Assembly (NCBI GenBank): GCA_001791995.1
Contig: MGFR01000003.1
Span: 6,170-70,169, forward strand
DNA: 64,000 nt
Source of the DNA: Candidatus Woesebacteria bacterium RBG_13_46_13
Lineage (GTDB): Bacteria; Patescibacteriota; Microgenomatia; UBA8517
Reading direction: 5' to 3'
Part shown: in pieces, positions 18,010 to 64,000 of the stretch
Position numbering within the stretch: the first letter of the stretch is position 1
How the letters are laid out: the number at the start of each line of letters is the position of its first letter
The notes under the pieces: model-generated
The model's input: the letters and a program-made list of their open reading frames with translations, nothing else
What the model was told of the DNA's origin: nothing
Database searches by the model: none
Program-made: the position numbers and the translations under genes

Positions 18010-18012
18010 TGA

Positions 18013-19888: not shown

Positions 19889-19891
19889 TTC

Positions 19892-20674: not shown

Positions 20675-20679
20675 GAAAA

Positions 20680-21899: not shown

Positions 21900-21923
21900 T
21901 TTGAGTATAGTGTATATAGGGAT

Positions 21924-23882: not shown

Positions 23883-23888
23883 CATGAG

Positions 23889-24389
23889 ATGCAAAAACAT
23901 TCTGCCTACACAAAACTAAACTCCGCCTATACCTTCATCGAGATTTTGGTTGCCTTAACCATCATCAGCCTGATCTTCGGCGTGGGCTACGTCAGCTTTA
24001 GGGATTTCTCCAGACGTCAGGCCTTAGCCGGTGCCGCCAGAGGAATCGTCGGAGATCTGCGTCTGGCCCAGGAAGAAGCCATCGCGGGCCAGAAACCAGC
24101 GGATATTTTTTGCAACCCGCCGGCAATCCTTAACGGATATAACTTTCGTGTGGTAAATGCCCAGAATTATGTGGTGGAAGCCAACTGCTCGGGAGGCAAT
24201 GTTCAGGTAAAAAGCGTAACCATCGCTTCCGATATTTCGATGTCCATTCCGTCTCCCAACCCCATTACTTTCAAGATTTTGGCCCAGGGAACCAATATTA
24301 ATGCCCCGTCCGCTACTCTGACACTGACTCAAAAAGGCACCGCGGCCACGCGGCCAATTTCCATCAGCCAAGCGGGAGAAATAAAATAG
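23889..24389 (+). CDS. minor pilin, GspH/FimT-like
   Basis: Prepilin-like N-terminus SAYTFIEILVALTIISLIF, with Ala replacing Gly at -1. RRQALAGAARGIVGDLRLAQEEAI block resembles FimT/GspH. Confidence 0.55.
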   Translation: MQKHSAYTKLNSAYTFIEILVALTIISLIFGVGYVSFRDFSRRQALAGAARGIVGDLRLAQEEAIAGQKPADIFCNPPAILNGYNFRVVNAQNYVVEANCSGGNVQVKSVTIASDISMSIPSPNPITFKILAQGTNINAPSATLTLTQKGTAATRPISISQAGEIK

Positions 24390-24860
24390 ATGACCAAAAA
24401 AATGGAAAAAGGACAAAGCCTGTTCGAAATAGTTTTGGCTCTGGCAATTGCTACCTTAATTGTTGTGGCCTTGGTTGCTCTGGCCTCCTCCGCCATCAGA
24501 AACTCCACCTTTGCCAAAAACAAAAGTTTGGCTACCCGCTATTCCCAGGAGGCAACCGAATGGTTGAGGGGGGAAAGGGACACGGATTGGGACGTCTTCT
24601 ACGCCCGAACGGCAAATCCCCTTTACTGCCTAAAATCTCTTTCCTGGACCGAGGCGACGATCGGTCAGTGTACCTCCGGGCAGGAAATAACGGGCACGGT
24701 TTATAAAAGAGAGATTGGTTTTACCCGCGAGACAGTCGATGTGGGTGGCGTCCCCAAGAACGTAGTCGAGGCGGAAATAAATGTCTATTGGCAGGACGCC
24801 CAGGGGATTCATGAGGTTAAATCCGTAACCAACTTTACCGACTGGAGGGACACAATATGA
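24390..24860 (+). CDS. minor pilin (GspI/PilV-like)
   Basis: KG|QSLFEIVLALAIATLIV with Glu+5. 156 aa. Confidence 0.6.
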   Translation: MTKKMEKGQSLFEIVLALAIATLIVVALVALASSAIRNSTFAKNKSLATRYSQEATEWLRGERDTDWDVFYARTANPLYCLKSLSWTEATIGQCTSGQEITGTVYKREIGFTRETVDVGGVPKNVVEAEINVYWQDAQGIHEVKSVTNFTDWRDTI

Positions 24861-25357
24861 AAAAACAGATATCTGCCCGCGGGGTGAGCTTTATCGAGAT
24901 TTTGGTGGTTATTGCCATTTTTGCAATTTTGGGTGTTTTGGTCGGCAGAATTACCTTGATTACCCTTAGGGGTTCCAATAAAAGCGAGTCTTTGGGAAAG
25001 GTTAGGACCAACCTGGATTATTCGTTGGCCGTAATGGAGCGCCAGTTGAGAAATGCCGAAACCGCATCTCCCTGCAACAACACCGCAGTGACGACCATCA
25101 ATTATACCGATATCGATGGAATCCCAAGTTCCTTCTCCTGTGTCAATATCGGCCCTACGGGCTATATTGCCTCAAGCTCGGCAAGGCTGACCACCGATGA
25201 GATAAAAATAACCGCCTGTTCCTTTACCTGCTCCCCTGCCGCAGGCAGGGTTCCGCCGGCAGTGACGATTTCGCTGGAGGCAGCTGATGCCAAAACAACC
25301 GGAATAGAGGCTGCCAAAGTTACGGCAACCACCAAAATCTTTCTTAGAACTTATTAG
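24857..25357 (+). CDS. minor pilin (GspJ/PilW-like)
   Basis: ARG|VSFIEILVVIAIFAIL with Glu+5. YSLAVMERQLRNA block. ATGA overlap upstream. Confidence 0.6.
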   Translation: MKKQISARGVSFIEILVVIAIFAILGVLVGRITLITLRGSNKSESLGKVRTNLDYSLAVMERQLRNAETASPCNNTAVTTINYTDIDGIPSSFSCVNIGPTGYIASSSARLTTDEIKITACSFTCSPAAGRVPPAVTISLEAADAKTTGIEAAKVTATTKIFLRTY

Positions 25358-25406
25358 CAAGTTTTAAGATTGACCGGGGTATACTTGATTGCTAAACTGA
25401 TAACGT

Positions 25407-26309
25407 ATGAAAAAACTGTCCCTGTGGGAAAATAGCTCCGGCCAGGCACTTCTTCTGGTACTTTTGTCGATGGCGGTTGTTTTGACTATTGTTCTTTCGA
25501 TACTTTCCCGAAGCGTAACCGACGTTGCGGTAACAACCCGGGAAGAGGAGGCCTTACGGGCCTTTTCCGCAGCCGAGGCAGGGGTGGAAAGGGCTTTGAT
25601 AGTAGGCTCGAGTATTGGTAGTACCGAAATAGGAGACGCTTCCTTTACCGCTGATGTTTCGGGTACTGCCCAGGCCGGTATCGAGTTTGCCAACCCGGTC
25701 GGAATCCTTTCCGGGGAATCCCTTATCTTTTGGTTCGTTGCCCATGACGATACGGGAAATTTAATCTGTAATGCCGGCAACCCCTGTTTTACGGGAAGTA
25801 AGTTTAAAATTTGTTGGGGCAAGGAAGGAACCGCTTCTGGTGATGCAACCACTCCTGCGATAGAGGTTTCCACTTATTATGCAACCACCCCGGGAGATTA
25901 CGCGACCGTCCAAATTGTCAGAGACACAGCGGATCCCAATAGTTCCAGACGGGGAACGAACAATTTCTCTGCCAACGATGCGGGAACCTGTACGGCAGGC
26001 GGGGAAAATTTCCAGTTTCAAAAGACCGTGGATTTGGCTCTCTTGGGAGTTCCGGTAGGCGCATACGGCGTGCAAAACGGATTGCAGTTTGCCAAGGTCA
26101 GAATGTTTTACAACACGGGTGTGGGTCACCAGATCGGTATCACTACGAGTTTTCCGGGCAATACATTACTCCCCTCCCAAGGTTTAAGGATCGTTTCAAC
26201 CGGGGTATCAGGAGACTCCAACAGAAAGATAGAAGTCTTTCAGGGCTTCGGGGAACTTCCGCCGATATTCGACTCTGCGGTATTTAGCTCAGGAGGAATC
26301 TCCAAATAA
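25407..26309 (+). CDS. minor pilin PilX/GspK-like
   Basis: SSG|QALLLVLLSMAVVLTIVLSIL followed by ALRAFSAAEAGVERAL, typical of PilX/GspK. No Glu+5, as in the GspK class. Confidence 0.55.
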   Translation: MKKLSLWENSSGQALLLVLLSMAVVLTIVLSILSRSVTDVAVTTREEEALRAFSAAEAGVERALIVGSSIGSTEIGDASFTADVSGTAQAGIEFANPVGILSGESLIFWFVAHDDTGNLICNAGNPCFTGSKFKICWGKEGTASGDATTPAIEVSTYYATTPGDYATVQIVRDTADPNSSRRGTNNFSANDAGTCTAGGENFQFQKTVDLALLGVPVGAYGVQNGLQFAKVRMFYNTGVGHQIGITTSFPGNTLLPSQGLRIVSTGVSGDSNRKIEVFQGFGELPPIFDSAVFSSGGISK

Positions 26310-26310
26310 C

Positions 26311-27321
26311 ATGGTGGGGCTGGACATAGGTTCCAAAACGATAAAAGTAGTTGAGTTGGCCAAAGAGGGCAACTCTTGGAGGCTTAAAGCCTCGGGTGTG
26401 ATCGGTTTTCAGGGAACCAGCCCGGATAAAGCCAAGGACCAAAGCGAACTGGCTGCCCTTGCACAAATAATTAAAAAGCTTTTTAAGGAGGCGAATATTT
26501 CCTCAAAAGAGGTAGCCCTTGCACTTCCCGAATCGCAGGTTTTCTCACGCACCGTGAAGTTCCCGCCCTTAACCGATCAGGAAATAGACTCGGCTGTTAA
26601 ATGGGAAGCCGAACAATATATTCCGATTCCGGTCAATGAGGCAATCATCGAGCATCAGATAATTGAAAGGAGAGACACCGCCTCTCCTCCGGAAGTGGTT
26701 GTTCTTTTGGTGGCGGCGCCCAGGAATCTGGTCGAACCTTATGTCAGAACGGTGCAGATGGCGGGACTCACGGTTGTCGGGGTAGAAACGGAACTAATTG
26801 CTCTGGCCAGATCCATCTCCCCCGCCAACCAAACCGTTCTCTTGGTGGATTTTGGTGCCCGCTCAACCGATATCGCCATTGTCAGGAATAACCAGTTAAG
26901 CTTTACCCGCACTATTCCCACAGCCGGAGAGGCCTTCACCAGAGCTGTTGCCCAGAGCTTGGGAGTGGAGGTTCAGCAGGCCGAAGAGTACAAAAGGGCC
27001 TATGGGCTTTCCCAAAGCCAGTTGGAGGGCAAGGTTAAGGGAGCTTTAGAGCCCATCTTCAGGGTTGTAGTCGATGAGATGAAAAAAGCAATCCATTTTT
27101 ACCAGTCGGAGGAAAAAGGGGAAGCTCCGAAATCGATTATTCTTTCGGGAGGTACGGCGGGCATGCCCGAGGCGCTATCACTTCTGACCAAGATGATGGG
27201 ACTGGAAGTGGTGGTGGGCAATCCTTTTGCCAAGGTTGCGGTTGATGCCCAGGCCGCCAAGAGTTTAGCAGCATTCGCCCCTCTCTACTCGATTGCCGTG
27301 GGGCTCGCGATGAGGGAGTAA
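26311..27321 (+). CDS. pilM: type IV pilus assembly protein PilM (actin-like ATPase)
   Basis: N-terminal VGLDIGSKTIKVVEL and internal DFGARSTDIAIV actin-fold phosphate motifs. 336 aa. Confidence 0.85.
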   Translation: MVGLDIGSKTIKVVELAKEGNSWRLKASGVIGFQGTSPDKAKDQSELAALAQIIKKLFKEANISSKEVALALPESQVFSRTVKFPPLTDQEIDSAVKWEAEQYIPIPVNEAIIEHQIIERRDTASPPEVVVLLVAAPRNLVEPYVRTVQMAGLTVVGVETELIALARSISPANQTVLLVDFGARSTDIAIVRNNQLSFTRTIPTAGEAFTRAVAQSLGVEVQQAEEYKRAYGLSQSQLEGKVKGALEPIFRVVVDEMKKAIHFYQSEEKGEAPKSIILSGGTAGMPEALSLLTKMMGLEVVVGNPFAKVAVDAQAAKSLAAFAPLYSIAVGLAMRE

Positions 27322-27324
27322 GTT

Positions 27325-27855
27325 ATGGCCGCCATTAATCTTCTACCCAAAGATCTGTTGCCGAGCGCGGGGCTAATCAAAACCGCGAAACTTCTCAAAA
27401 ATCTTTTAACCTTGGGCTTTGGCATTTTTACGATAGTCCTTGTCGGTTTGGTTGCTTTTTTTGTCCTAAACTCGATTAGCCTGCGTTCCTCCACCGCCCG
27501 CCAGGAAGAATTGAAAAATTCCATCAAGGCCCTCGAGCAAACGGAGCAGGGACTGGTCTTGGTCAAGGATAGACTTACCAAAGTCAAGGAGGTATTGGCC
27601 AAAGATTCGGGAGCGGAAGAGGTGGATAACCTGGCCAAAGTTTCGTCTTTGACCACAGCCGGTGTGGATTTGACCGAAGCCGTTGTCTTTAAAGAAGAGT
27701 TGGATACGACCTTTAACGTTTCCGATGCCAGCGTTCTGACCAGTTTTATGGCCCAGATAATTGCCTCCGGGGACTACAAGAGAATCGATTTAAACTCCTT
27801 CAGTTTTAATCCCAGCGTGGGTTATCTTATCAGTCTGGCCTTTATCAGCAAATAA
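27325..27855 (+). CDS. pilN: PilN-like bitopic pilus alignment protein
   Basis: Short cytoplasmic INLLPKD motif, which binds PilM. Single TM, coiled coil. Position immediately after pilM. Confidence 0.6.
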   Translation: MAAINLLPKDLLPSAGLIKTAKLLKNLLTLGFGIFTIVLVGLVAFFVLNSISLRSSTARQEELKNSIKALEQTEQGLVLVKDRLTKVKEVLAKDSGAEEVDNLAKVSSLTTAGVDLTEAVVFKEELDTTFNVSDASVLTSFMAQIIASGDYKRIDLNSFSFNPSVGYLISLAFISK

Positions 27856-27856
27856 C

Positions 27857-28552
27857 ATGGCACAAAGCGATTTATCAAAAAAACTACTCTCCCCCAACGT
27901 CAAGGCCTTTATGGGGCCTGTCGGGCTTTTACTGCTTTTGGCAATTTTGAGTGTTTTTGCCTTCCGCTTCGGTTTTGCCAAGATCTCCGAACAAAGGCAG
28001 TCTGTGGCCACGGCCAGACAAAACGAGTCGGTCCTGTCCCAGAAAGAGTCTATCTTAAAGGATGTCCAATCCGGTGTGCCCTCTTACGTCAAGGCGGTTG
28101 CGGCGGCACTCCCTGAGAAAAACCCCAGCCTTTCGATGGTTTCGCAACTGAGAATATTAAGCGGAGAAAAGGGCCTATCTTTGGGAAATATTAAGGTCGG
28201 TTCGGAAATAGCGGCAGGTGGGGCTTCGATTTCCGAGGTCGACGTCACCTTCGGGATAGAAGGTCCGGCCGCAGAAATAGTTTCTTTTTTGGCAGCCGTC
28301 AAGGATCTTGCACCGGTCTCAACCATTGAAAAGGCCAAAATCAACAGATCCTCAATCGGTACCCGGGCCGATATTACCTTAAGAGTCTATAAATCGGAAT
28401 TTCCCCAGAAGTTACCATCGTTAACGGAGCCCGCCAGAGCCTTAACCGATGACGAGAAGACCACTCTCACCAAACTCTCGGCTTTAAGGCTGCCCATATT
28501 TTCGGAGCTGACCCCGCAAGGAGGAGCCGTGAGGGAAAATCCCTTCGAGTAA
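27857..28552 (+). CDS. pilO: PilO-like bitopic pilus alignment protein
   Basis: Single TM followed by a coiled coil and a C-terminal alpha/beta domain. Position after pilN. Confidence 0.5.
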   Translation: MAQSDLSKKLLSPNVKAFMGPVGLLLLLAILSVFAFRFGFAKISEQRQSVATARQNESVLSQKESILKDVQSGVPSYVKAVAAALPEKNPSLSMVSQLRILSGEKGLSLGNIKVGSEIAAGGASISEVDVTFGIEGPAAEIVSFLAAVKDLAPVSTIEKAKINRSSIGTRADITLRVYKSEFPQKLPSLTEPARALTDDEKTTLTKLSALRLPIFSELTPQGGAVRENPFE

Positions 28553-55604: not shown

Positions 55605-55676
55605 TGAGCCTGGGAGGAATCGAACCTCCAACCGCTTCCTTAAGAGGGAATCGCTCTACCGTTGAGCTACAGGCCC
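55605..55676 (-). tRNA. tRNA-Lys (anticodon CTT); CCA not encoded
   Basis: Hand fold: acceptor GGGCCUG/CAGGCUC, anticodon loop CUCUUAA, T-loop GGTTCGATTCC. The 5' end overlaps the upstream CDS stop by 10 nt. Confidence 0.75.
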
Positions 55677-57064
55677 TTGATTAGCTTCAATATTGTAGCA
55701 AAGAAACCGTCTATTTTCATTCTTGGAGGGGAAACGATAAACAATTGGAAAAATTCAGGGGAAGAAATTGCATTACCGCCTTTTGTCAGAGTCAAGGATT
55801 TTAGCTGGACACCGGACTCTTCGGGGGCCAGTATCTTGAAAGAGATGAAGCCTATAGAGCCGGGTTCAAGGGTCTCGAAGGAGGGAGATATTCCTAATGC
55901 AGATTCTTCTTGCGAAATTAAACCTATATCACTTTTGTTCCAGATAGACTGGCCGGTATTCTTTACAAGTAAGGTGCCGGAGATTATGGAACCTGTTAAG
56001 CGGAAGGGTTGAACGATAACGCTTTCGATTTCGGCCTTTTCTTCCTGGACAGGTTCCCCCTTGACCTTATTTAGGCTTGCTACCTCAAAATAGAAAGGGT
56101 AAAAAAATCCTTCTTTGTCTTTCCAGGAAAAAGTGTCGAAAGGAGGCTCGTTATAGGAAAGCAGAAACGGGGTAACCGCGATAATTTTTTTGTCCGTCCA
56201 GACTTGGGTAAAGGCAAAAGAAAGCCTTTCTCCGATTATATCGGTACTTATGGCTTTTTTCTTTTCGCCGTTCATGGCATGGGCCCAACCGGTTTCGGTA
56301 ATAAATACGGGTAATTCTTTGGCTATCCCCAGCTCCTTTAAAAGAGAAAGTTCCCAGTCATATGTTCTAACGGAGCCCCTTCCGTATCCGTTTTGGCTAC
56401 CGGAAAAATCGGGGTTGGGGTAGGAATGCGACGCCCAGCCGTCGACGTTTGCAAAGACTTGCGGCTCTTTGGCCAGCATTTTTTTGATAAAAGTAGCTTC
56501 GTCCATGGTATCTTTTGAATTCCCGGCGGAGGCATCTAGTCCTGCGGGTAAGACGAAAAAGTCGGAGGAGGCACCCTTTAGTTTTGAGGAAAATTCCCTC
56601 AGATAAGTCGCATACTCTTCCGGATTTATCTCACCACCCCACTCCTTGGTGTGATTGGGTTCGTTGGCGATAACCACATAGCGGTTTTTGACAACCCAAT
56701 TTAGAGAGTTTAAAAAACTCACCCAGCCGTCAATTTCGCCCAGACTTGGCTTTTCCCAAATATCTCCCAAGGGTCTGGTGGCAATTCTTACAATTGGTAT
56801 CAGATGCAGCCGTCGGGCTTTGTTAAAAGTATCCTGCCATTTATCCTTGTTTTTGTCGGTTTGCTGGATAACCAGAGTTACGTAACCCCAGTCTCCTCCG
56901 CTGGAATTGACCAGTTTGGCCGCATCCTCCAAATCGTTGGAATCGATAATGTGGATTCCGAAACGGTTATTGGCAACCGAGGCAAGATCGTAAGCAGCTG
57001 CTATTCTTGAGCCAAAAAGCAAAAAACAGATTGAAACAAATAATGAGGTTAGTAGTTTTTTCAT
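55667..57064 (-). CDS. secreted GH-A clan (GH5-like) glycoside hydrolase
   Basis: Signal peptide. VIANEPN (acid/base Glu of the NEP motif) and FITETGWA (nucleophile Glu), spaced as in TIM-barrel GH5-type enzymes. C-terminal beta-rich domain. Confidence 0.6.
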   Translation of the reverse strand: MKKLLTSLFVSICFLLFGSRIAAAYDLASVANNRFGIHIIDSNDLEDAAKLVNSSGGDWGYVTLVIQQTDKNKDKWQDTFNKARRLHLIPIVRIATRPLGDIWEKPSLGEIDGWVSFLNSLNWVVKNRYVVIANEPNHTKEWGGEINPEEYATYLREFSSKLKGASSDFFVLPAGLDASAGNSKDTMDEATFIKKMLAKEPQVFANVDGWASHSYPNPDFSGSQNGYGRGSVRTYDWELSLLKELGIAKELPVFITETGWAHAMNGEKKKAISTDIIGERLSFAFTQVWTDKKIIAVTPFLLSYNEPPFDTFSWKDKEGFFYPFYFEVASLNKVKGEPVQEEKAEIESVIVQPFRLTGSIISGTLLVKNTGQSIWNKSDIGLISQEESALGISPSFETLEPGSIGFISFKILAPEESGVQLKSLTLTKGGNAISSPEFFQLFIVSPPRMKIDGFFATILKLIKGL

Positions 57065-57096
57065 CCAGAATAATCTTAGCAGAAGCGAATTATTTG

Positions 57097-57170
57097 TGCC
57101 CCCGGCGCGACTCGAACGCGCAACCCTATCGTTAGAACCGATGCGCTCTATCCAATTGAGCTACGGGGGC
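57097..57170 (-). tRNA. tRNA-Arg (anticodon TCT); CCA not encoded
   Basis: Hand fold: acceptor GCCCCCG/CGGGGGC, anticodon loop GUUCUAA, T-loop GTTCGAGTC. Confidence 0.75.
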
Positions 57171-57174
57171 TCGG

Positions 57175-57246
57175 AGCGGGCGAAGGGAATTGAACCCTCT
57201 GTCTCTTCCTTGGCAAGGAAGCATTTTACCGGTAAACTACGCCCGC
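57175..57246 (-). tRNA. tRNA-Gly (anticodon GCC); CCA not encoded
   Basis: Hand fold: acceptor GCGGGCG/CGCCCGC, anticodon stem CUUCC/GGAAG with loop UUGCCAA, T-loop GGTTCAATTCC. Confidence 0.8.
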
Positions 57247-57433
57247 ACTGTGCTGAAGGCGCTATCAGAGTCAAGCACCCCAATTTGATTCCAGCAATTC
57301 AATAATACTATAAACGAGGCTGAAATTCTAATTACACAACAGAAAGTTCTAAAAGCTTACCAAGCGGAGCATATAATTATACTTAAACCATATTAAAATT
57401 GTGCGAATAATTGACATAGTTTGTTGTATATAA

Positions 57434-57462
57434 TTGACTTTTTGATGATAAGTGGGTATATT
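57434..57462 (+). promoter_or_regulatory. near-consensus sigma70 promoter TTGACT-17-TATATT with AT-rich upstream region
   Basis: -35 TTGACT at 57434-57439, 17-nt spacer, -10 TATATT at 57457-57462. AT-rich UP-like tract at 57370-57430. Confidence 0.45.
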
Positions 57463-57468
57463 CGAGGT

Positions 57469-57560
57469 GTGCTGGTGGGCGAAAGCCCCTCTTCGGCTAA
57501 GGTATATCTAAGCTGAGAGCCAGCACACTAGGAGCGTCCGCGAGGACGCTTCTTGTTTCT
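57469..57560 (+). ncRNA. candidate small structured RNA (about 92 nt), function unknown
   Basis: Bounded by the promoter above and an intrinsic terminator. Predicted closing helix GUGUGCUGG/CCAGCACAC encloses a GGGC-GAAA-GCCC hairpin and a UCGGCUAAG/CUAAGCUGA hairpin. No plus-strand ORF in the transcript. Confidence 0.4.
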
Positions 57561-57944
57561 GGAACGTTTATTGTTAGGCATTACACTTACAAATTCAACC
57601 TTTCCCGTTCCTATTTTCTCAAGAACGACCCTCATTTCTGTATCTTTTGCTATTTCGCTAACCAGGCCGTATTGGATAACAGATTTCTTTTTACCCTTTA
57701 TTTCTTTTGTTGTGTTTCTAGCTTTAAACTCCTTACTTTCTCTTATTACTCTAGGTGCATGAGGTAAACACATTAACTTGAGATATTGTTCGTCAATCGT
57801 TCGTGGCCTTCGATTTTTCTTGTACAGAAGGTGATTGAAGCCATTCGATGTAAAGAAAACGGTATCTCCCAAGGCTGGACAATAAATTGAAACAATGCTG
57901 TTATAGAAAGCACGCCTTCGAAGTTTTAGAATTTCAATATTCAT
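57528..57944 (-). CDS. hypothetical basic protein (138 aa) in AT-rich segment
   Basis: ORF in a low-GC stretch between tRNA genes. Lys/Arg-rich C-terminus. The ORF-track start at 57998 would overlap tRNA-Phe, so the internal ATG at 57944 is used. No SD. Confidence 0.25.
   Translation of the reverse strand: MNIEILKLRRRAFYNSIVSIYCPALGDTVFFTSNGFNHLLYKKNRRPRTIDEQYLKLMCLPHAPRVIRESKEFKARNTTKEIKGKKKSVIQYGLVSEIAKDTEMRVVLEKIGTGKVEFVSVMPNNKRSRNKKRPRGRS
57533..57560 (+). terminator. rho-independent terminator (7-bp stem AGCGUCC/GGACGCU, GCGA tetraloop, UCUUGUUUCU tract)
   Basis: Read directly from the sequence. The U-tract occurs only on the plus strand. Confidence 0.55.
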
Positions 57945-57971
57945 TAAGCGAAAGCTAACAGAAAATTTCTG

Positions 57972-58044
57972 TGCCGAGAGTGTGAGTCGAACACACATCT
58001 GACGCTCTTCAGGCGCCCGCCGTGACCACCTTGGCTATCTCGGC
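57972..58044 (-). tRNA. tRNA-Phe (anticodon GAA); CCA not encoded
   Basis: Hand fold: acceptor GCCGAGA/UCUCGGC, anticodon stem GGCGC/GCGUC with loop CUGAAGA, T-loop TGTTCGACTCA. Confidence 0.7.
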
Positions 58045-58056
58045 AAATTACTCCTG

Positions 58057-58130
58057 TGGTCGCTGAGGGTCTCGAACCCCCGACCTTGCGGATGTAAACC
58101 GCACGCTCTAACCAACTGAGCTAAGCGACC
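58057..58130 (-). tRNA. tRNA-Val (anticodon TAC); CCA not encoded
   Basis: Hand fold: acceptor GGUCGCU/AGCGACC, anticodon loop UUUACAU, T-loop GGTTCGAGACC. Confidence 0.8.
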
Positions 58131-58215
58131 TGGTGCCGGGAAGAGGACTCGAACCTCCACACCTTGCGGTACACGCACCTCAAGCGTGCCTGTCTACCAG
58201 TTTCAGCATCCCGGC
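58131..58215 (-). tRNA. tRNA-Leu (anticodon GAG), type II; CCA encoded
   Basis: Acceptor GCCGGGA/UCCCGGC, anticodon loop UUGAGGU, long variable arm. Directly abuts tRNA-Val with 0-nt spacing. Confidence 0.8.
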
Positions 58216-58247
58216 ATGGTGCAGATAAGCCAAGCTTGTCTGCTCTG

Positions 58248-58333
58248 TGCAGATGAGAGGACTTGAACCTCTACGGACGTTTAAAGTCCATACGGCCCTG
58301 AACCGTACGCGTCTGCCATTCCGCCACATCTGC
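58248..58333 (-). tRNA. tRNA-Leu (anticodon CAG), type II; CCA not encoded
   Basis: Acceptor GCAGAUG/CAUCUGC, anticodon loop UUCAGGG, variable arm GGACUUUAAACGUCC. Confidence 0.8.
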
Positions 58334-58362: not shown

Positions 58363-59442
58363 CTATATAAATCTTACTTGGAGTTCTGGACTAACTTTGG
58401 TGGTTAGAGGTACCTCCTGACCGGGAAAATGTGCGGCCGGTCCCCAGATTTTGGCCAGCTTTTTATCAGAGGCAAAATCTTCTCCTATCTCTTCGGCGAC
58501 CTGGGCCAGTGTTTTTCCTTCTTTGGTAATCATGGGGTTTGCCGTTCCCGGCTCCTCATCCGCCTTGACCAGATAAATCTTAAGAAGCCTAAGCCTCTGC
58601 CAAATTTGAGTCAAAAGCTCATCTATTCCCTCTCCGGTTTCTGCGCTGATTGCTATGAAAATGTCTTTCGGCAGTCTATTAATTTTTTTGTCCTGGTCGA
58701 TTTTATTGATTACGAAGATAGCGTCAAGATAGGCCCTACTTGGAGAAAAAGCGTCAAGCAGCCGCTCCATTGAAAAATTCTCTTTTAAGACGATATCAGC
58801 ATTTTTGATGCCGTATTCCTTAGCTATCTCCTTGATGGTCTCTTTGGACAGCTGTTGGGTTATGTTCGACTGAACGTTTAGGCCCCCTTCGGGCTTTTTG
58901 TCGATACGAATCCCAGGTTGGGTTTTGTTTATCCTTATTCCTGCCTCCTCGAGTTCCTTCTGAAGTGTTTGGGTTTGGTCGGCCCTCTCGACGTCGGTCA
59001 TGATCAGCAATAGATCCGCACCGCGAGCAACGGAGAGGACTTCTTTGCCTCTTCCTTTACCGTGCCTTGCGCCTTCGATCAGCCCCGGTACGTCCATAAT
59101 TTGAATATAGGCGTCGTTGAATTTAAGCATTCCGGGAATTACCGAGACCGTGGTAAAAGCATATGGGGCTACCTTGCTTTCGGCGTTGGTCAGTCGATTG
59201 ATTAAAGTGGATTTTCCGGCAGAAGGAGGACCTATAAGTACAACCGTAGCGTCACCCTCTTTCCTGACGGCATAACCTCCTCCGCCCCCTCCGTGGGCAC
59301 GGATGACCCCTTCGAATTGTCTGTCTTTTAGACGCGAAAGTCTGGCTCTTAACTTTCCGATATGGTGCTCCGTCCCTTTGTGGTAGGGGGTTTCTCTTAT
59401 CTCCTTTTCGATATCCTCAATTTGTTGGGTAAAATCGGCCAT
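58363..59442 (-). CDS. DRG/Rbg1-family (Obg-like, TGS-containing) GTPase
   Basis: Near-colinear with eukaryotic/archaeal DRG1: EIEKEI..T..NK.TEHH.G.L.A.L, the GGGGGG...GDA stretch, G1 GPPSAGKSTL, G2 FTT, G3 DVPGLIEGA..GKGRG, NKID, and C-terminal TGS block LVKADEEPG...IWG. Confidence 0.8.
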   Translation of the reverse strand: MADFTQQIEDIEKEIRETPYHKGTEHHIGKLRARLSRLKDRQFEGVIRAHGGGGGGYAVRKEGDATVVLIGPPSAGKSTLINRLTNAESKVAPYAFTTVSVIPGMLKFNDAYIQIMDVPGLIEGARHGKGRGKEVLSVARGADLLLIMTDVERADQTQTLQKELEEAGIRINKTQPGIRIDKKPEGGLNVQSNITQQLSKETIKEIAKEYGIKNADIVLKENFSMERLLDAFSPSRAYLDAIFVINKIDQDKKINRLPKDIFIAISAETGEGIDELLTQIWQRLRLLKIYLVKADEEPGTANPMITKEGKTLAQVAEEIGEDFASDKKLAKIWGPAAHFPGQEVPLTTKVSPELQVRFI

Positions 59443-59467
59443 TGTTGTATAATTATATCTGATTTTA

Positions 59468-59539
59468 GCCTCTGTGGCTTAACGGATAGAGCATCGGTCT
59501 TCGGAACCGAGGGTGGAGGTTCGATTCCTCCCAGAGGCA
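59468..59539 (+). tRNA. tRNA-Arg (anticodon TCG); CCA not encoded
   Basis: Hand fold: acceptor GCCUCUG/CAGAGGC, anticodon stem UCGGU/ACCGA with loop CUUCGGA, T-loop GGTTCGATTCC. Confidence 0.75.
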
Positions 59540-59588
59540 CATTATATCTACTCCGAAGAAAATGTGGAGTTTCCCCAACGAAACGGGA

Positions 59589-60222: not shown

Positions 60223-60690
60223 TTACCTGGAGACTTGAATTGTGGCGCTGTTCTCCGCGTTACAGGCCTTAACGGTAACTATACTATTTGAATCCGAAAC
60301 TACCGAATAGTAGGTAGTGCTGGCAGAGCCCCCACCGGGATCAACGGGAATAGACTTCAAATACTTGGCCAAGGTCACGGAAAGATCCAAACAGGCAGCG
60401 GCCGCTCCGGTACATTGAGATCCTCCCCCTGAGCCGCAGGTTCCGAGCTGCTTTTCGGTTGAGGTAACGCCGGTTGGAAGGCTTCCGTTATTGTCGATGA
60501 TGTATTCATGAACCGCGGTCAAGACAGAATTGACGTCATTCCACCGACGGGAGTTTCTGGCATCCGCAAATCTTTGTACGGGATTTAGGGCCACGATTAC
60601 GATTGAAGCCAAAATAGCGATGATGGCAATAACCAAGAGTAATTCAATGAGTGTAAAACCGCTTTTGTTAGAAGATGGAGCGTTGGGCAT
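60223..60690 (-). CDS. type IV pilin (second PilA-like paralogue)
   Basis: KSG|FTLIELLLVIAIIAILASI with Glu+5. NPVQRFADARNSRRWNDVNSVLTAVHEY parallels the first pilin (19298..19888). Cys pair. Confidence 0.75.
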   Translation of the reverse strand: MPNAPSSNKSGFTLIELLLVIAIIAILASIVIVALNPVQRFADARNSRRWNDVNSVLTAVHEYIIDNNGSLPTGVTSTEKQLGTCGSGGGSQCTGAAAACLDLSVTLAKYLKSIPVDPGGGSASTTYYSVVSDSNSIVTVKACNAENSATIQVSR

Positions 60691-60735
60691 GTCTTTAATT
60701 ACTACAGCACATAGCCGATTTTAAGTCAAGGCCGC

Positions 60736-61107
60736 TCAAATCTCTTTCCAAAAAACCGGTGTGATCGTTGTCGCCCTGGTTGTTATAACCCGTATCGATT
60801 TGCCGTAGCCGTTGACCGTTGCCGAGACCGTAAAGGTCCAGTCAAAGCCGGTATGCGAATCCACGACCAGAGAGCAGATTCCCTCGGGCAGGGTTATTGT
60901 CGAAGGAAGGCTGTTGTTGGTATTGATGGAGTAAATCGCATCCTCAATGCAGGCTTCAACACGATTAATAGTTTCTTCCCTTCTTCTTCCGGATAGAGAT
61001 TTTTGGGCTTCGGAGATTGATGTTAGGGCCAAAGTTACACCTATAACCAAAAGAACAGCCGAAATAATCAGAACGCTTGAAAACGCAATGTAACCCTTTT
61101 GTCTCAT
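60736..61107 (-). CDS. minor-pilin-like protein with degenerate prepilin motif
   Basis: QKGYIAFSSVLIISAVLLVIGV hydrophobic N-terminus without Glu+5. Start taken at ATG 61107 to avoid a 71-nt overlap with the upstream gene; the ORF track gives 61179. Confidence 0.4.
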   Translation of the reverse strand: MRQKGYIAFSSVLIISAVLLVIGVTLALTSISEAQKSLSGRRREETINRVEACIEDAIYSINTNNSLPSTITLPEGICSLVVDSHTGFDWTFTVSATVNGYGKSIRVITTRATTITPVFWKEI

Positions 61108-61108
61108 T

Positions 61109-61633
61109 TTAATTAGATCTAACCTCCGCTGCCGAAATAAACGTCTGAGAACGATCAAATTCGCTCCTGGTAGAGGCATTAACCGAGTCGATGGTTAAGG
61201 AAAACCTGATATTTTTGGTCAGAGATCCGCTGGTTAGATTGGTAAAGGTCAGGCCGCTCACGCTAACCAAGTTTGAGGTCAGGGCTACGTCATTTGAGAG
61301 CGCGGCGCAGACAGGTGAGCCTCCTCCCCAACCGATTCTTAAAACTCCTGACGCAAGATAAATTCTGGTAGGATTTCTGGTAGCGTCGGAATTAGACATA
61401 CAAATAGAAGTGGCCGAGACGGAATTAATGTCGGAGGCATTTCTTATTTCAAAGAGAATCCTTTTTGAAGCCAGTCTAAGATTCTGGGTAACTTCTGTGT
61501 AAACGTTTGATTTGATCCTACCGTAAATAATGTTCCAGCCAAACTGGACAGCACCATAAACAAAAATTGTAACCAGAGCGATATAGACGATCAGTTCGAT
61601 AAAGGTAAAACCGTTGTTTATATTTTTTCTCAT
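61109..61633 (-). CDS. pseudopilin / minor pilin
   Basis: NNG|FTFIELIVYIALVTIFV with Glu+5. 174 aa. Confidence 0.65.
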   Translation of the reverse strand: MRKNINNGFTFIELIVYIALVTIFVYGAVQFGWNIIYGRIKSNVYTEVTQNLRLASKRILFEIRNASDINSVSATSICMSNSDATRNPTRIYLASGVLRIGWGGGSPVCAALSNDVALTSNLVSVSGLTFTNLTSGSLTKNIRFSLTIDSVNASTRSEFDRSQTFISAAEVRSN

Positions 61634-61634
61634 C

Positions 61635-63065
61635 TTATAAGGGCTTAAAACCGGCTAGTTCTTGTGCATTGGCCTCTGTTGCTCCGTATGCCCTGTCGTT
61701 AAACGCAGAGTAAGCGACGCCGTTAATGTTGTTCGTGTAATCAAACGATCCGAAAAGGGCTGGAGTAGAAAAAGTACCGATTGTCACGATTTGAAATTCG
61801 GAAGAGGCGTTATTGGTCCCCAGAAACACATAGTTGTTGGCGTTACCGAGCGCTATGTCGTTAATATTTGCCCCGGCCAGGTAGGTTCCGGAAAGCGTAG
61901 GCGCCGAGGGTGTTGAGACGCTTATCGTGTCCAATTCTCCCCCTTGTCTAGATATGATAATTGCTAAGTCAAATCCGGAGATTGAAGTTGCATCGGAACC
62001 TCCGGTAATGTCTAAAGACCCTACCAAGGAGGGCGAGGCAGGCGTTGAAACGCCTACCACTTGAAGCTCCTGGGTATTGGAGGAGGAAGCAACGAAGGCA
62101 TTAGATCCCAAAACAACAATCTCGTTGGCGTCGGCACCCAAGTCTAATGAACCGGTCAGAGAAGGGGCTGAAGGCGTACTGATATCCGTGACAATAAATT
62201 CATCATCCGCGCTGCTGTCCCTGACCAGATAGGCGTAGTTTCCGATAACAAACACGCCGTTGGCGTTGGCGGCCCCTGCAGCATCAAACGTGCCGACAGA
62301 ACTGGGGGTGGAGGGTGTACAAACGTCTATAATCTGCAATTCTGTGGCGTCCGCTTCGTTGGTAATGTAGGCGTATCTGCCCCAGACGTAGATGTTGGTG
62401 GGGTTACCCGAAAGAGTTAAAGATGAAGTCAAGCTGGGGGTAGAGGTCGAAATATCAAATATGGCAAAGTTCGGCGAGCCGGTATTCCTGGTCAGGTAAG
62501 CATAATGTCCCTGAACTTGGATTTTGTCTCCATTGTCGTTGCCAGCAAGGTCAACACTCGACTCCTGGGAAGGGCTGGCCCAGTTACCGACGGCTGTTTT
62601 TTTCCAATTCGTATAGTAAGTCTCGAAACTAACGGTATTTGCTCTGGCAATGGTGAAATTCCAACTGACGGTCGAAGTTATCTTCTTGGCGTTTAAATCC
62701 AGAACGTTGGCGCAGCCCGAAAGAACCGGATTATTCGTGGGAATATCCCGGTAGACGTCGGCAACACTGATTTGTCTGGTATAGCTACCTTTGGTGTCCG
62801 AAGAGCCCGAAAAAGCCCAAGTACCTCCACCGCTGGTAGCCCCATGGTTACCGTTGGTTAACAAAGACCAGGACTGGTTCTTGATGGAGCGTGCGGCTTC
62901 TATCCCCTCCTGGGCGTAAAGGGTTGCGTCACTTTCGTTGTCTCCGAGCCTATTTATAGAGAATATTTGCAGAATGGCGGTTACCGCGGAGACGGCGACA
63001 ACCACGAATATTCCGACTGCGACAATTACTTCAATGATTGCGAAGCCTGATTTAGATTTTACCAT
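61635..63065 (-). CDS. prepilin-leader protein fused to LVIVD-repeat beta-propeller (candidate pilus adhesin)
   Basis: N-terminus KSG|FAIIEVIVAVGIFVVVA with Glu+5. The C-terminal about 330 aa carries at least 7 tandem repeats of about 40 aa: [YAY(L/I/V)..x10-15..(E/N)(L/F)xI(I/V)D(I/V)S(T)P(S)xPSLxGS]. Confidence 0.7.
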   Translation of the reverse strand: MVKSKSGFAIIEVIVAVGIFVVVAVSAVTAILQIFSINRLGDNESDATLYAQEGIEAARSIKNQSWSLLTNGNHGATSGGGTWAFSGSSDTKGSYTRQISVADVYRDIPTNNPVLSGCANVLDLNAKKITSTVSWNFTIARANTVSFETYYTNWKKTAVGNWASPSQESSVDLAGNDNGDKIQVQGHYAYLTRNTGSPNFAIFDISTSTPSLTSSLTLSGNPTNIYVWGRYAYITNEADATELQIIDVCTPSTPSSVGTFDAAGAANANGVFVIGNYAYLVRDSSADDEFIVTDISTPSAPSLTGSLDLGADANEIVVLGSNAFVASSSNTQELQVVGVSTPASPSLVGSLDITGGSDATSISGFDLAIIISRQGGELDTISVSTPSAPTLSGTYLAGANINDIALGNANNYVFLGTNNASSEFQIVTIGTFSTPALFGSFDYTNNINGVAYSAFNDRAYGATEANAQELAGFKPL

Positions 63066-63066
63066 G

Positions 63067-63507
63067 TCAATTAATATCCAATTCCCCCGCGCTATTTAAT
63101 ATTAAGTTTTTGGTCCCGGTCGAGGCCGAAATTGTAATTGTCAGGGTAGAAGAGGGTTCGCCGCGGTCTGTCGAAAAGGTCACGTTGGAAAATCCGGAAA
63201 TGCCAACGCTGGAGGGATAACTAAAATCCTCCGAGAACGACGGAGAACCACAGGTTCCTCTAAAAAGGCGGATGTTTGTTCCGTCTAAACAGGCACCCCA
63301 GGCAACATTGTTTTTGCCGTCCATGGAATAGCTTTGGGCTTTCTTGAGGGTGCTGACAACTTTATCGACGGTGGCGTCAAGATTGGTTTGGATGAAAAAT
63401 CTGGCTAAAAAAGGAGATGTCGTTGCGGCCAGGATTGATATTAAGGCCACAACCATTAAAAGCTCTATAAAGGTAACACCGTTTTCCGGATAAGAGTTTT
63501 TCAGCAT
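63067..63507 (-). CDS. pseudopilin (GspH/FimT-like)
   Basis: ENG|VTFIELLMVVALISILAA with Glu+5. 146 aa. Confidence 0.65.
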   Translation of the reverse strand: MLKNSYPENGVTFIELLMVVALISILAATTSPFLARFFIQTNLDATVDKVVSTLKKAQSYSMDGKNNVAWGACLDGTNIRLFRGTCGSPSFSEDFSYPSSVGISGFSNVTFSTDRGEPSSTLTITISASTGTKNLILNSAGELDIN

Positions 63508-63511
63508 CTGG

Positions 63512-64000
63512 CTATCTGATACTTCCGGTAAGCTGGTAGATGGGACTGATTATTGCGATTGCAATTAAGGCCACGATAAGCCCCACGACAATCAGCAGAA
63601 TAGGCTCCAAAACGGTGGTCAGGTTTTTAGTAACATTGTCCAGCTCTTCGTCATAATAATCGGCCAAGTATAAAAGCGAGTCGGCGAGTTTACCGCTTTT
63701 TTCCCCTACCGATATCATTTTCGTAACCAGAACGGGGAAAAGACGATCTTTGGAGAGGGATTCGGTCAAGGATTTCCCCTGCTCAACCCCGGCTTGAGCT
63801 TGGTTGACTAATTTTTGAAAAGACTGGTTGGATAAAGTTTTCGCCGTAACCGCTAGGGCCTGAGATATCGGAACTCCGCTTTGCAGGAGAGTTCCCAGGT
63901 TTCTGCAGAATCGGGTAATCTGAAAATTCTTGGCGATTGCGCCCACAAAAGGAAGTCTAATAACTATCTGCCCCCAAACGGATTTAAGAGGAGTCAGGAT
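63512..64000 (-). CDS. GspF/PilC-family platform protein, C-terminal part (5'-truncated by window edge)
   Basis: The 144-aa ORF-track segment (63512..63946) is in frame to the window edge. T2SSF repeat with the SGKL motif region ISVGEKSGKLADSL and terminal TM helix. Confidence 0.7.
   Translation of the reverse strand: MLTPLKSVWGQIVIRLPFVGAIAKNFQITRFCRNLGTLLQSGVPISQALAVTAKTLSNQSFQKLVNQAQAGVEQGKSLTESLSKDRLFPVLVTKMISVGEKSGKLADSLLYLADYYDEELDNVTKNLTTVLEPILLIVVGLIVALIAIAIISPIYQLTGSIR

What the first reader, a model, noticed from the sequence alone, without database searches (positions are those of the whole stretch)
58363..59442. DRG/Rbg1-type GTPase (normally archaeo-eukaryotic) in a bacterial gene context
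The protein is colinear with eukaryotic DRG1 from the N-terminal helical region through the GGGGGG stretch, G1-G4 motifs and the C-terminal TGS domain. The surrounding genes (bacterial tRNAs, pili, bacterial ribosomal proteins) are clearly bacterial. DRG-family GTPases are ribosome-associated factors characteristic of archaea and eukaryotes. A bacterial copy implies either ancient retention in this lineage or horizontal acquisition.
Basis: partly seen in the sequence, partly recalled or inferred. Interest (0 to 1): 0.65.

Follow-up and report, generated by a model that had tools for sequence, protein, structure and literature searches.

The report
Archaeal-type DRG GTPase in CPR bacteria
A ribosome-binding GTPase of the DRG/Rbg family, which reviews describe as absent from bacteria, is really encoded in this candidate-phyla-radiation bacterial genome. 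It belongs to a large bacterial DRG clade that has been stably inherited and was most likely acquired long ago from archaea.

Summary
ORF 58363-59442 (-) encodes a 359-aa protein that aligns end to end with yeast Rbg2 and Rbg1 (E 1e-70 and 1e-65). It has the helix-turn-helix, the GGGGGG linker, motifs G1-G5, the DRG-specific S5D2L insert (Pfam PF16897, 87 bits) and a TGS fold. Obg matches the G domain only (E 1e-14). The AlphaFold model superposes on Rbg1 at TM 0.76-0.81.

The contig is bacterial: trigger factor, IF3, bL20, bS16, NusB, a class A penicillin-binding protein, GyrB and type IV pili. The gene's GC and codon usage match the window.

It is not a one-off. Thousands of homologues exist, with source names in the Microgenomates group of Patescibacteria: Woesebacteria, Pacebacteria and Shapirobacteria. 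Subclades only 36-47% identical to the window protein (33% at the lowest within the clade) share the same neighbourhood: tRNA-Arg(tcg), a tRNA array and a 465-aa secreted protein.

In NJ trees all context- or name-verified bacterial sequences form one clade (52% bootstrap). Its stem is very short and it sits inside an unresolved archaeal radiation.

Best reading: one ancient archaea-to-CPR transfer, then vertical descent. The protein probably acts without a DFRP partner as a GTP-dependent factor on 70S ribosomes.

The papers I found on DRGs and on CPR ribosome biogenesis do not mention it; databases list it under generic names. It is a new member of a known kind. Interest is moderate.

The parts
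58363..59442 (-). DRG/Rbg-family GTPase gene, 359 aa plus stop codon
   Evidence: ORF. Pfam MMR_HSR1 + MMR_HSR1_Xtn + weak TGS. Full-length alignment to yeast Rbg2 and Rbg1. AF2 model with mean pLDDT 81 superposes on Rbg1 4a9a at TM 0.76-0.81.
59308..59442 (-). N-terminal helix-turn-helix domain (residues 1-45). It carries the motif TPYHKGTEHHIG, whose Lys22 aligns with the conserved Lys of the eukaryotic NKATE motif.
   Evidence: Helices 5-17 and 25-44 in the model. Aligned to the Rbg1/Rbg2 N-termini. The signature His is present in 32/32 bacterial sequences, whereas most archaea and eukaryotes have Asn.
59272..59295 (-). Glycine-rich linker H50-GGGGGG-Y57
   Evidence: Read directly from the translation. 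Low pLDDT at residues 46-58. Aligned to the GGGGG stretch of Rbg2.
58933..59253 (-). G domain, first part (residues 64-170): G1 GPPSAGKS, G2 T97/T98, G3 DVPG followed by Leu121 (a hydrophobic residue where Ras has the catalytic Gln), and the GKGRGKEV signature
   Evidence: Pfam MMR_HSR1 at residues 66-170. Invariant columns in 31 relatives.
58738..58932 (-). S5D2L-like insertion in the G domain (about residues 171-235)
   Evidence: Pfam PF16897 at residues 186-286, 87.4 bits. Beta-beta-beta-alpha-beta-alpha elements at residues 169-232 in the model. Superposes on Rbg1. The domain boundaries are my estimate from the model.
58588..58737 (-). G domain, second part (residues 236-285): G4 NKID (246-249) and G5 SAE (266-268)
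   Evidence: Translation. N246, K247, D249, S266 and A267 are invariant.
58366..58587 (-). C-terminal TGS (beta-grasp) domain, residues 286-359
   Evidence: Pfam TGS is sub-threshold at 19.4 bits. pLDDT is about 90 or higher. The region aligns to the TGS of Rbg1/Rbg2 in sequence and in structure. Many homologues carry a recorded PF02824 hit.
59468..59540 (+). tRNA-Arg(tcg), divergent, 25 nt upstream of the DRG start codon; a conserved neighbour
   Evidence: ARAGORN and Rfam. The same tRNA lies directly upstream of DRG in L001, L004, L005 and L008, and within 1.4-4 kb in L009 and L007.
57096..58333 (-). tRNA array that starts 30 nt downstream of the DRG stop, on the same strand: Leu(cag), Leu(gag), Val(tac), Phe(gaa), [inserted ORF 57528-57998], Gly(gcc), Arg(tct)
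   Evidence: The same order follows DRG in L001 and L004; the array is displaced by about 3 kb in L005. No terminator-like site lies between the DRG stop and the first tRNA.
55667..57064 (-). Conserved syntenic neighbour: a 465-aa protein with an N-terminal signal-like segment and no Pfam hit. It is not a DFRP.
   Evidence: Homologues (36-48% identity over most of their length; 70% in the partial L004 match) lie within about 1.3 kb of DRG in L001, L005, L007, L012 and L013, and about 2.2 kb away in L004. No Pfam family. Only weak PDB hits to GH5/GH17 enzymes, E about 0.05.

Best explanation
The gene encodes a genuine, intact member of the DRG/Rbg subfamily of Obg-like GTPases. Its layout is HTH, Gly-rich linker, G domain with an S5D2L insert, then TGS.

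The host genome belongs to Patescibacteria (candidate phyla radiation) and is related to the Microgenomates group.

The gene belongs to a large bacterial DRG clade. That clade has been inherited vertically within this group for a long time, in a conserved neighbourhood of tRNA genes. It most probably entered an ancestor of the group by one ancient horizontal transfer from an archaeon.

By homology (inferred, not shown), the protein binds GTP and docks on the translating 70S ribosome at the factor-binding site. There it would help paused ribosomes continue peptide synthesis and leave after GTP hydrolysis. It would work alone, as archaeal DRGs appear to, without a DFRP partner.
For: Family identity:
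- Pfam PF01926 plus PF16897, well above cutoff.
- Rbg2 and Rbg1 at E 1e-70 and 1e-65 over the full length, against Obg at 1e-14 over the G domain only.
- Structure model TM 0.76-0.81 to Rbg1, against at most 0.45 for YchF and at most 0.36 for Obg.
- No NCBIfam Obg, YchF, Era, Der or HflX model reaches its cutoff.
- All GTPase motifs are invariant in 31 relatives, with 70% mean column identity, which indicates purifying selection.

Bacterial host and no chimera:
- Bacteria-specific genes occur across the window.
- The gene has GC 0.477, GC3 0.497 and codon-usage distance 0.166. The window gene means are GC 0.472 and GC3 0.518.

Size of the clade:
- More than 3,000 hits at E<1e-10; the best 120 are 59-97% identical. 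Source names include Candidatus Woesebacteria and Patescibacteria, Pacebacteria and Microgenomates, and Shapirobacteria.

Vertical inheritance:
- L001 is collinear with the window over 10 genes although its GC is 0.38 rather than 0.47.
- tRNA-Arg(tcg), the tRNA array and the 465-aa neighbour are conserved next to DRG in subclades whose proteins are only 36-47% identical to the window protein.
- Gene contexts of P0130, P0132, P0134, P0195 and P0318 are bacterial.

Archaeal origin:
- All 32 bacterial sequences form one NJ clade (52% bootstrap). It contains no sequence that was verified as archaeal.
- Its stem is 0.04 substitutions per site, against 0.20 for eukaryotes. Bacteria-to-archaea identity (40.3%) is about equal to archaea-to-archaea identity (42.6%).
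- The nearest outgroups are archaeal by context or name.

Function:
- Rbg1 and Rbg2 were solved on 80S ribosomes (PDB 7rr5 and 7nrc).
- A preprint (10.64898/2026.05.13.724932) reports that an archaeal Drg, and even E. coli ObgE, rescue yeast or human cells that lack Rbg/Drg, and that rescue depends on GTP hydrolysis.
Against: - The backbone of the tree is unresolved. Support for bacterial monophyly is only 52% (NJ, one 353-column protein alignment), no ML tool was available, and the tree is unrooted.
- One bacterial subclade (Pacebacteria-like, around P0132) scores as well with the archaeal profile as with the bacterial one, -8 to +11 bits. A second transfer, or a root inside the bacterial clade, is therefore not excluded.
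- The taxonomic range rests on a handful of source names.
- Nothing here shows GTPase activity or ribosome binding. TGS is below the Pfam cutoff by sequence.
- Whether the same genomes also carry Obg could not be tested. The window has no other GTPase.
Confidence: 0.75

Rival explanations
1. Ancient vertical retention. DRG was present in LUCA or the last bacterial common ancestor, and survives only in this CPR lineage after loss everywhere else in bacteria.
For: The bacterial sequences form one clade with deep internal divergence: mean 49% identity, minimum 33%. Synteny is conserved across subclades. The tree is unrooted, so a root on the bacterial stem cannot be excluded.
Against: The bacterial stem is very short, 0.04 against 0.20 for eukaryotes. 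Bacteria-to-archaea identity is no lower than identity among archaea, unlike what I would expect of a primary split between domains (my expectation, not tested). All source names fall in the Microgenomates group or in unspecified Patescibacteria, so many independent losses would be needed. Reviews of the family report no bacterial members (PMC8629797).
Confidence: 0.13
2. Two or more independent archaea-to-CPR transfers, with the Pacebacteria-like subclade acquired separately from the Woesebacteria/Shapirobacteria-like subclades.
For: Subclade D (around P0132) is equivocal between the bacterial and archaeal profiles. Its hit list mixes Methanomassiliicoccales and Altiarchaeales proteins at about 50% identity with Patescibacteria proteins at 51-53%. 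Bootstrap support for bacterial monophyly is only 52%.
Against: The motif TPYHKGTEHH is shared by all 32 bacterial sequences. tRNA-Arg(tcg) and tRNA-Lys(ctt) lie within 1.4 kb of the gene in L009 as well. NJ still recovers one clade.
Confidence: 0.12
3. Functional rival. The protein acts mainly in ribosomal subunit assembly, compensating for assembly GTPases lost in this lineage, rather than on translating ribosomes.
For: PMC12641178 reports that CPR have about half the usual number of ribosome-biogenesis factors and that Microgenomatia lack der, era and rbfA. PMC10582724 reports loss of Era in most CPR. The paralogous Obg and Nog1 are assembly factors.
Against: The solved DRG complexes are on mature translating 80S ribosomes (7rr5, 7nrc). 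No DRG is known as an assembly factor. PMC12641178 reports that Microgenomatia retain obgE.
Confidence: 0.2
4. Artefact: an archaeal or eukaryotic fragment mis-assembled or mis-binned into a bacterial contig.
For: None beyond the unusual taxonomy of the family.
Against: GC, GC3 and codon usage equal the window average. The gene lies between bacterial-type tRNA genes. The same arrangement recurs in independent assemblies from NCBI, JGI, ENA and Logan.
Confidence: 0.01
5. A divergent bacterial Obg or YchF that merely resembles DRG.
For: NCBIfam ObgE models hit the G domain at about 90 bits.
Against: Those hits are far below the cutoffs (280-406 bits) and cover only residues 65-200. There is no Obg-fold (PF01018) or YchF C-terminal domain. 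The DRG-specific PF16897 is present. The full-length fold matches Rbg1.
Confidence: 0.01

Closest known systems
Yeast Rbg1 and Rbg2, human DRG1 and DRG2 (PDB 4a9a, 7rr5, 7nrc)
   Same: Identical domain order (HTH, Gly-rich linker, G domain with S5D2L insert, TGS). All five G motifs. The GKGRGK signature after switch II. The conserved Lys in the N-terminal loop. Alignment over about 345 residues at E 1e-65 to 1e-70, and TM 0.74-0.81.
   Different: Only 35-36% identity. The N-terminal motif reads HKG instead of NKA. No DFRP partner (Tma46/Gir2 type) was seen nearby. The host has a 70S bacterial ribosome. There is one copy rather than a DRG1/DRG2 pair.
Archaeal DRG (single-copy aDrg; for example the clusters named Thermoplasmatota, Hydrothermarchaeota, Methanomassiliicoccales, Altiarchaeales and Thermoprotei)
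   Same: Closest in sequence: up to 48% identity to the window protein and up to about 52% to other bacterial members. Same length and domains. Stand-alone, with no established DFRP.
   Different: Archaeal genes lie in archaeal contexts, such as KsgA-DRG-Hjc, or next to Rpb6 and eL18. The bacterial genes form their own NJ clade and are set among tRNA genes.
Bacterial Obg (ObgE/CgtA)
   Same: Same superfamily. The G domain is homologous at E about 1e-14. Both bind ribosomes. A preprint reports that ObgE can substitute for Rbg1/Drg1.
   Different: Obg has an N-terminal glycine-rich Obg fold and no HTH, S5D2L or TGS domain. None of the Obg models reaches its cutoff.
YchF/Ola1
   Same: Obg-like family with a C-terminal TGS-like domain, and it binds ribosomes.
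   Different: YchF has a coiled-coil insert and an ATP-preferring NxxE G4 motif, whereas this protein has NKID. Fold match is at most TM 0.45. The NCBIfam YchF models reach 26-43 bits against cutoffs of 279-387.

Membership tests
DRG/Rbg subfamily of Obg-like GTPases | N-terminal helix-turn-helix domain followed by a glycine-rich linker | tested here: met
   Helices 5-17 and 25-44. Residues 4-45 align to the Rbg1/Rbg2 N-termini, and GGGGGG lies at residues 51-56.
DRG/Rbg subfamily of Obg-like GTPases | TRAFAC G domain with G1-G5 and a hydrophobic residue in place of the catalytic Gln | tested here: met
   GPPSAGKS, T97/T98, DVPG-L121, NKID and SAE. These are invariant in relatives. PF01926 scores 84 bits.
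DRG/Rbg subfamily of Obg-like GTPases | S5D2L insertion inside the G domain (Pfam PF16897 MMR_HSR1_Xtn) | tested here: met
   87.4 bits against a cutoff of 35.2, profile positions 2-106 of 106. It superposes on Rbg1.
DRG/Rbg subfamily of Obg-like GTPases | C-terminal TGS domain | tested here: met
   Sub-threshold in Pfam by sequence (19.4 bits against 22.2). However, the region aligns to the TGS of Rbg1/Rbg2, is modelled at pLDDT of about 90, and is included in the full-length superposition. Many close homologues carry a recorded PF02824 hit.
DRG/Rbg subfamily of Obg-like GTPases | Closer to DRGs than to any other Obg-like subfamily | tested here: met
   Rbg2 and Rbg1 at E 1e-70 and 1e-65, against Obg at 1e-14, Nog1 at 1e-8 and YchF at 1e-4 to 1e-5. 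It clusters with archaeal and eukaryotic DRGs among the 311 family clusters.
DRG/Rbg subfamily of Obg-like GTPases | DFRP-type partner protein (defining for eukaryotic DRG complexes, not established for archaea) | tested here: inconclusive
   No DFRP family appeared among the about 70 window ORFs scanned or among the called genes of nine bacterial loci. Whole genomes were not available.
DRG/Rbg subfamily of Obg-like GTPases | GTP hydrolysis and association with translating ribosomes | not testable with these tools
   Needs biochemistry or cryo-EM.
Obg/CgtA | N-terminal glycine-rich Obg fold (PF01018), and passing the ObgE equivalog models | tested here: not met
   No PF01018 hit. ObgE models score 63-93 bits against cutoffs of 280-406, over the G domain only.
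YchF/Ola1 | Coiled-coil insert, YchF C-terminal domain, NxxE G4 motif | tested here: not met
   No YchF-specific Pfam domain. G4 is NKID. TIGR00092 scores 25.9 bits against 279. TM is at most 0.45.
Nog1 | NOG1 N-terminal and NOGCT domains | tested here: not met
   No such Pfam hits. PDB Nog1 chains match only residues 65-126.

The most novel reading that the evidence does not exclude
DRG in the Microgenomates-group CPR bacteria is not a passive passenger. It would be an archaeal-type translation factor that became an integral part of a bacterial ribosome cycle, taking over work from the GTPases this lineage has lost (Der, Era), or working alongside Obg on different substrates. Alternatively, it would be a relic of a pre-LUCA DRG/Obg pair retained only in CPR, which would bear on the deep placement of CPR. 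Its fixed position at the head of a tRNA array would then reflect co-regulation with tRNA supply.
Probability: 0.12. Interest if true: 0.75.

Novelty: new member of a known kind. Interest (0 to 1): 0.5.

Why it matters
DRG reviews state that the family is found in eukaryotes and archaea "though not in bacteria" (PMC8629797). The current functional model pairs bacterial Obg with archaeal and eukaryotic Drg as counterparts (bioRxiv 10.64898/2026.05.13.724932). A whole bacterial lineage with a conserved, bona fide DRG contradicts the distribution statement.

It also offers a natural test of two questions: whether DRG can work on a 70S ribosome without a DFRP partner, and whether DRG and Obg are redundant.

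It adds a translation-machinery gene to the list of archaeal-type genes in CPR bacteria. The ribosome-biogenesis toolkit of CPR is known to be halved (PMC12641178), and that survey did not consider DRG.

The practical significance is moderate. The protein family and its fold are known, and sequence databases already hold thousands of these proteins under generic names.

Tried and rejected
It found only one close relative, a short DRG-like protein from a Micrarchaeota archaeon, and an Azospirillum Era. It therefore gave no phylum-wide distribution.
- The exact look-up of the window protein found nothing on record.
- Three cluster look-ups yielded very few organism names.
- No ML tree software was available. 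Phylogeny was therefore limited to my own NJ with bootstrap and a leave-one-subclade-out HMM test.
- No outgroup rooting was attempted, because only about 100 residues of the G domain align with Obg.
- Looked for a second Obg-like GTPase in the window to test co-occurrence with Obg. There is none; the only other P-loop proteins are PilB/PilT-type ATPases and RecG.
- Looked for a DFRP-like partner. None was found.
- Tested whether the ORFs inserted into the tRNA arrays of the window and of L004 are related. They are not.
- Six literature searches for DRG, Rbg1 or COG1163 together with CPR or Patescibacteria terms found no paper that describes bacterial DRGs.
- Considered and rejected: a chimeric contig (and the recurrent synteny), and a divergent Obg or YchF.
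Full report
**Observation.** The translation shows H50-GGGGGG-Y57, G1 GPPSAGKS (71-78), G2 T97-T98, G3 DVPG (117-120) followed by Leu121, the GKGRGKEV stretch, G4 NKID (246-249) and G5 SAE (266-268).

**Family assignment.**
- Pfam gives MMR_HSR1 (84 bits) and MMR_HSR1_Xtn (87.4 bits, cutoff 35.2, whole profile matched). The latter covers the S5D2L insert characteristic of DRGs. TGS is sub-threshold at 19.4 bits against 22.2.
- No NCBIfam equivalog model (ObgE, YchF, Era, Der, HflX, MnmE and others) comes near its cutoff, and all of them match only the G domain.
- Against PDB sequences the best matches are yeast Rbg2 (7nrc, E 9.5e-71, query residues 7-352) and Rbg1 (4a9a and 7rr5, E about 1e-65, residues 4-346). 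The best Obg reaches E 9.4e-15 on residues 65-164 only.
- An AlphaFold2 model built on 31 homologues has mean pLDDT 81 and pTM 0.77. Its low-confidence segments are the Gly linker and switch I.
- Foldseek against the PDB puts Rbg1 and Rbg2 first, at TM 0.74-0.81 over the full length. YchF reaches at most 0.45 and Obg at most 0.36.
- The protein is therefore a DRG by sequence, domain order and predicted fold.

**Host and integrity of the contig.**
- The window carries bacteria-specific genes throughout. These include trigger factor, DinB, DUF192, pilins and T2SSF, and bS16, bL20, IF3, NusB, RNase III and KhpA.
- It also carries an H+-pyrophosphatase, DegV and a restriction-modification pair.
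- Further genes are GyrB, Pol III delta', RecG, a class A penicillin-binding protein and PheST/ThrRS/TyrRS, and PilB/T/C/D/M. There are also 13 tRNA genes.
- The DRG gene has GC 0.477, GC3 0.497 and a codon-usage distance of 0.166. The window gene means are GC 0.472 and GC3 0.518. Only the restriction-modification island (2.7-7.1 kb) and ORF 57528-57998 are compositionally deviant.
- Contamination or chimerism is excluded.

**Distribution.**
- The 5.8-billion-protein search returned more than 3,000 hits at E<1e-10. The best 120 are full length and 59-97% identical. The few named ones are '[Candidatus Woesebacteria bacterium]', 'OBG GTPase family GTP-binding protein [Patescibacteria group bacterium]' and JGI's 'ribosome-interacting GTPase 1'.
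- In the library of 50%-identity representatives the whole DRG family amounts to 311 clusters at E<=1e-30. The best full-length representative outside the window's own cluster is only 47-49% identical.
- Searches seeded with two distant bacterial representatives gave the names Candidatus Pacebacteria, Microgenomates and Patescibacteria, and Candidatus Shapirobacteria and Patescibacteria.
- All informative bacterial names belong to the Microgenomates group, so the class-level placement of the window is inferred from them. One record, L001, is labelled Gammaproteobacteria. It is collinear with the window over ten genes and is clearly a relative.

**Synteny.**
- In the window, tRNA-Arg(tcg) lies 25 nt upstream on the opposite strand. 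An array Leu-Leu-Val-Phe-(insert)-Gly-Arg starts 30 nt after the stop on the same strand, with no terminator-like site in between.
- The same arrangement is found in L001 (63% identity) and L004 (75%). In L005, a 930-kb contig, it recurs with a 3-kb displacement.
- tRNA-Arg(tcg) is also directly upstream in L008 (P0134, about 45% identity to the window protein), and within 1.4-4 kb in L009 and L007.
- A 465-aa protein with a signal-like N-terminus and no Pfam hit (window 55667-57064) is next to DRG, or within about 1.3 kb of it, in L001, L005, L007, L012 and L013, and about 2.2 kb away in L004.
- Contexts of the distant representatives are bacterial:
  - P0130: Ddl, MacB.
  - P0134: bL20, IF3, ThrRS, trigger factor, SecG, LexA.
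  - P0132: bS15-PNPase, DksA.
  - P0195 and P0318: LexA, TGT.
- This pattern indicates long vertical inheritance within one bacterial group.

**Phylogeny.**
- I aligned 109 cleaned sequences: bacterial representatives, archaeal representatives, yeast Rbg1/2 and other eukaryotic representatives, and a divergent clade that includes the Micrarchaeota protein L002. I built NJ trees with 200 bootstraps on 353 columns.
- All 32 sequences that are bacterial by context, by name or by clade membership form one clade with 52% support. The window's subclade has 98% support.
- Every sequence verified as archaeal lies outside that clade: Hydrothermarchaeota/Thermoplasmata, Thermoplasmatota, Thermoprotei, 'archaeon', Methanomassiliicoccales and Altiarchaeales. 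So do P0411 (TopoVI/Hjc context) and P0407 (Rpb6/eL18/NurA context).
- Eukaryotes form a separate clade with 72% support. The backbone is unresolved.
- The bacterial stem is 0.04 substitutions per site, against 0.20 for eukaryotes. Mean identity between bacteria and archaea (40.3%) is about the same as among archaea (42.6%).
- In a leave-one-subclade-out profile test, six of seven bacterial subclades prefer the profile built from the other bacteria (mostly +6 to +42 bits; one member of the P0413 subclade, P0142, scores -3). The Pacebacteria-like subclade is equivocal (-8 to +11). All 51 archaeal sequences prefer the archaeal profile.
- The motif TPYHKGTEHH occurs in all 32 bacterial sequences, where most archaea and eukaryotes have NKA. 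The nearest archaeal cluster (P0411) and the L002-type clade also carry HKG.

**Origin.** I take one ancient archaea-to-bacterium transfer into an ancestor of this CPR group as the most economical reading, for three reasons:
- the apparently narrow bacterial range,
- the short stem inside an archaeal radiation,
- full amelioration of composition together with deep divergence within the clade.

Retention from LUCA and multiple transfers remain possible. The tree is unrooted and weakly supported, and I could not survey all bacterial genomes.

**Mechanism (inferred).**
- All catalytic and nucleotide-binding motifs are intact and invariant, so the protein should be an active GTPase.
- Rbg1/Tma46 and Rbg2/Gir2 have been visualised on 80S ribosomes (7rr5, 7nrc).
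- A preprint reports that an archaeal Drg, and even E. coli ObgE, restore growth and read-through of stalling sequences in yeast or human cells that lack Rbg/Drg, in a manner that depends on GTP hydrolysis (10.64898/2026.05.13.724932).
- I therefore expect this protein to bind 70S ribosomes at the factor-binding site and to favour continued peptide synthesis on paused ribosomes, without a DFRP.
- No DFRP-like gene is seen in the window or in nine related loci, but whole genomes were not examined.
- A role in subunit assembly is a reasonable rival, given that this lineage is reported to lack der, era and rbfA (PMC12641178; PMC10582724).

**What is known.**
- The DRG review PMC8629797 states that DRGs have homologues in archaea "though not in bacteria".
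- The 2026 preprint's phylogeny treats Obg as the bacterial branch and Rbg/Drg as the archaeal and eukaryotic branch.
- The CPR ribosome-biogenesis survey never mentions DRG.
- Six targeted searches found no paper describing DRG in CPR.
- Sequence databases nevertheless already hold thousands of these proteins under generic names. The clade is therefore unremarked rather than undiscovered: a new, bacterial member group of a known family.

**Limits.**
- Trees are NJ only, and there is no rooted tree.
- Taxon names are sparse.
- Co-occurrence with Obg was not tested.
- There are no functional data.

Noticed in passing
window 59443-59467; L001 and L004 upstream of the DRG start: The DRG start codon has no Shine-Dalgarno sequence. 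It is preceded by TATAAT (TAAAAT in L001), then TATACAACA, then ATG. This is conserved in L001 and L004 and suggests a leaderless or near-leaderless mRNA. In L007, L012 and L013 the divergent intergenic gap is only 14-28 nt.
   Followed up: partly
window 57528-57998 (-): A low-GC (0.38) ORF of 156 aa interrupts the tRNA array between tRNA-Phe and tRNA-Gly and overlaps the end of tRNA-Phe. It has a weak match to the LPD3 domain (Large polyvalent protein-associated domain 3). In L001 the same tRNAs are contiguous. L004 has an unrelated ORF inserted at another point of the array. These look like independent insertions into a tRNA array.
   Followed up: partly
window 55667-57064 (-): A 465-aa protein with a signal-like N-terminus and no Pfam family is syntenic with DRG in six other CPR loci. 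It gives only weak PDB hits to GH5 endoglucanases and a GH17 enzyme (E about 0.05). To my eye it has NEP and ETG motifs like a clan GH-A glycosidase.
   Followed up: partly
window 2674-7141: A low-GC island (0.36-0.40, against about 0.47-0.50 elsewhere) carries an AlwI-type restriction endonuclease, an N6/N4 DNA methylase and a DUF5655 protein. It is probably a mobile restriction-modification module.
   Followed up: no
window 15169-28552 and 60223-63946: There are two type IV pilus gene sets. The first has PilB, PilT, PilC, a pilin, the prepilin peptidase PilD, PilM and many small unannotated ORFs. The second has four or five pseudopilin-like genes, including a 476-aa N-terminally pilin-like protein with LVIVD beta-propeller repeats, and a second PilC fragment at the window end.
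   Followed up: partly
L001 (CAZTVZ010000001.1): The record title says 'uncultured Gammaproteobacteria bacterium', but the locus is collinear with this CPR window over ten genes (36-72% identity). The label looks wrong.
   Followed up: yes
L005 8001-9179 (P0111, 392 aa): The called start of this DRG homologue (TTG, giving 33 extra residues) overlaps tRNA-Arg(tcg) at 8003-8075 on the other strand. The start is probably mis-called, and several 389-402-aa homologues may share the problem.
   Followed up: partly
L002 2020-2907 and the clade around it (P0206, P0209, P0224 and others): A strongly supported (98-100%), fast-evolving clade of DRG-like proteins includes a Micrarchaeota protein of only 295 aa that appears to lack most of the S5D2L insert. 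This clade shares the HKG motif with the bacterial DRGs.
   Followed up: partly
L010, L011, L014: In three archaeal (or, for L010, archaeal-looking) loci, DRG is flanked by a KsgA-type rRNA dimethyltransferase upstream and/or an Hjc-like Holliday-junction endonuclease. This may be a conserved archaeal neighbourhood.
   Followed up: no
window 288-629 (+): A 113-aa protein with a eukaryote-type RRM_1 RNA-recognition motif (E 5e-26) lies at the start of the window.
   Followed up: no
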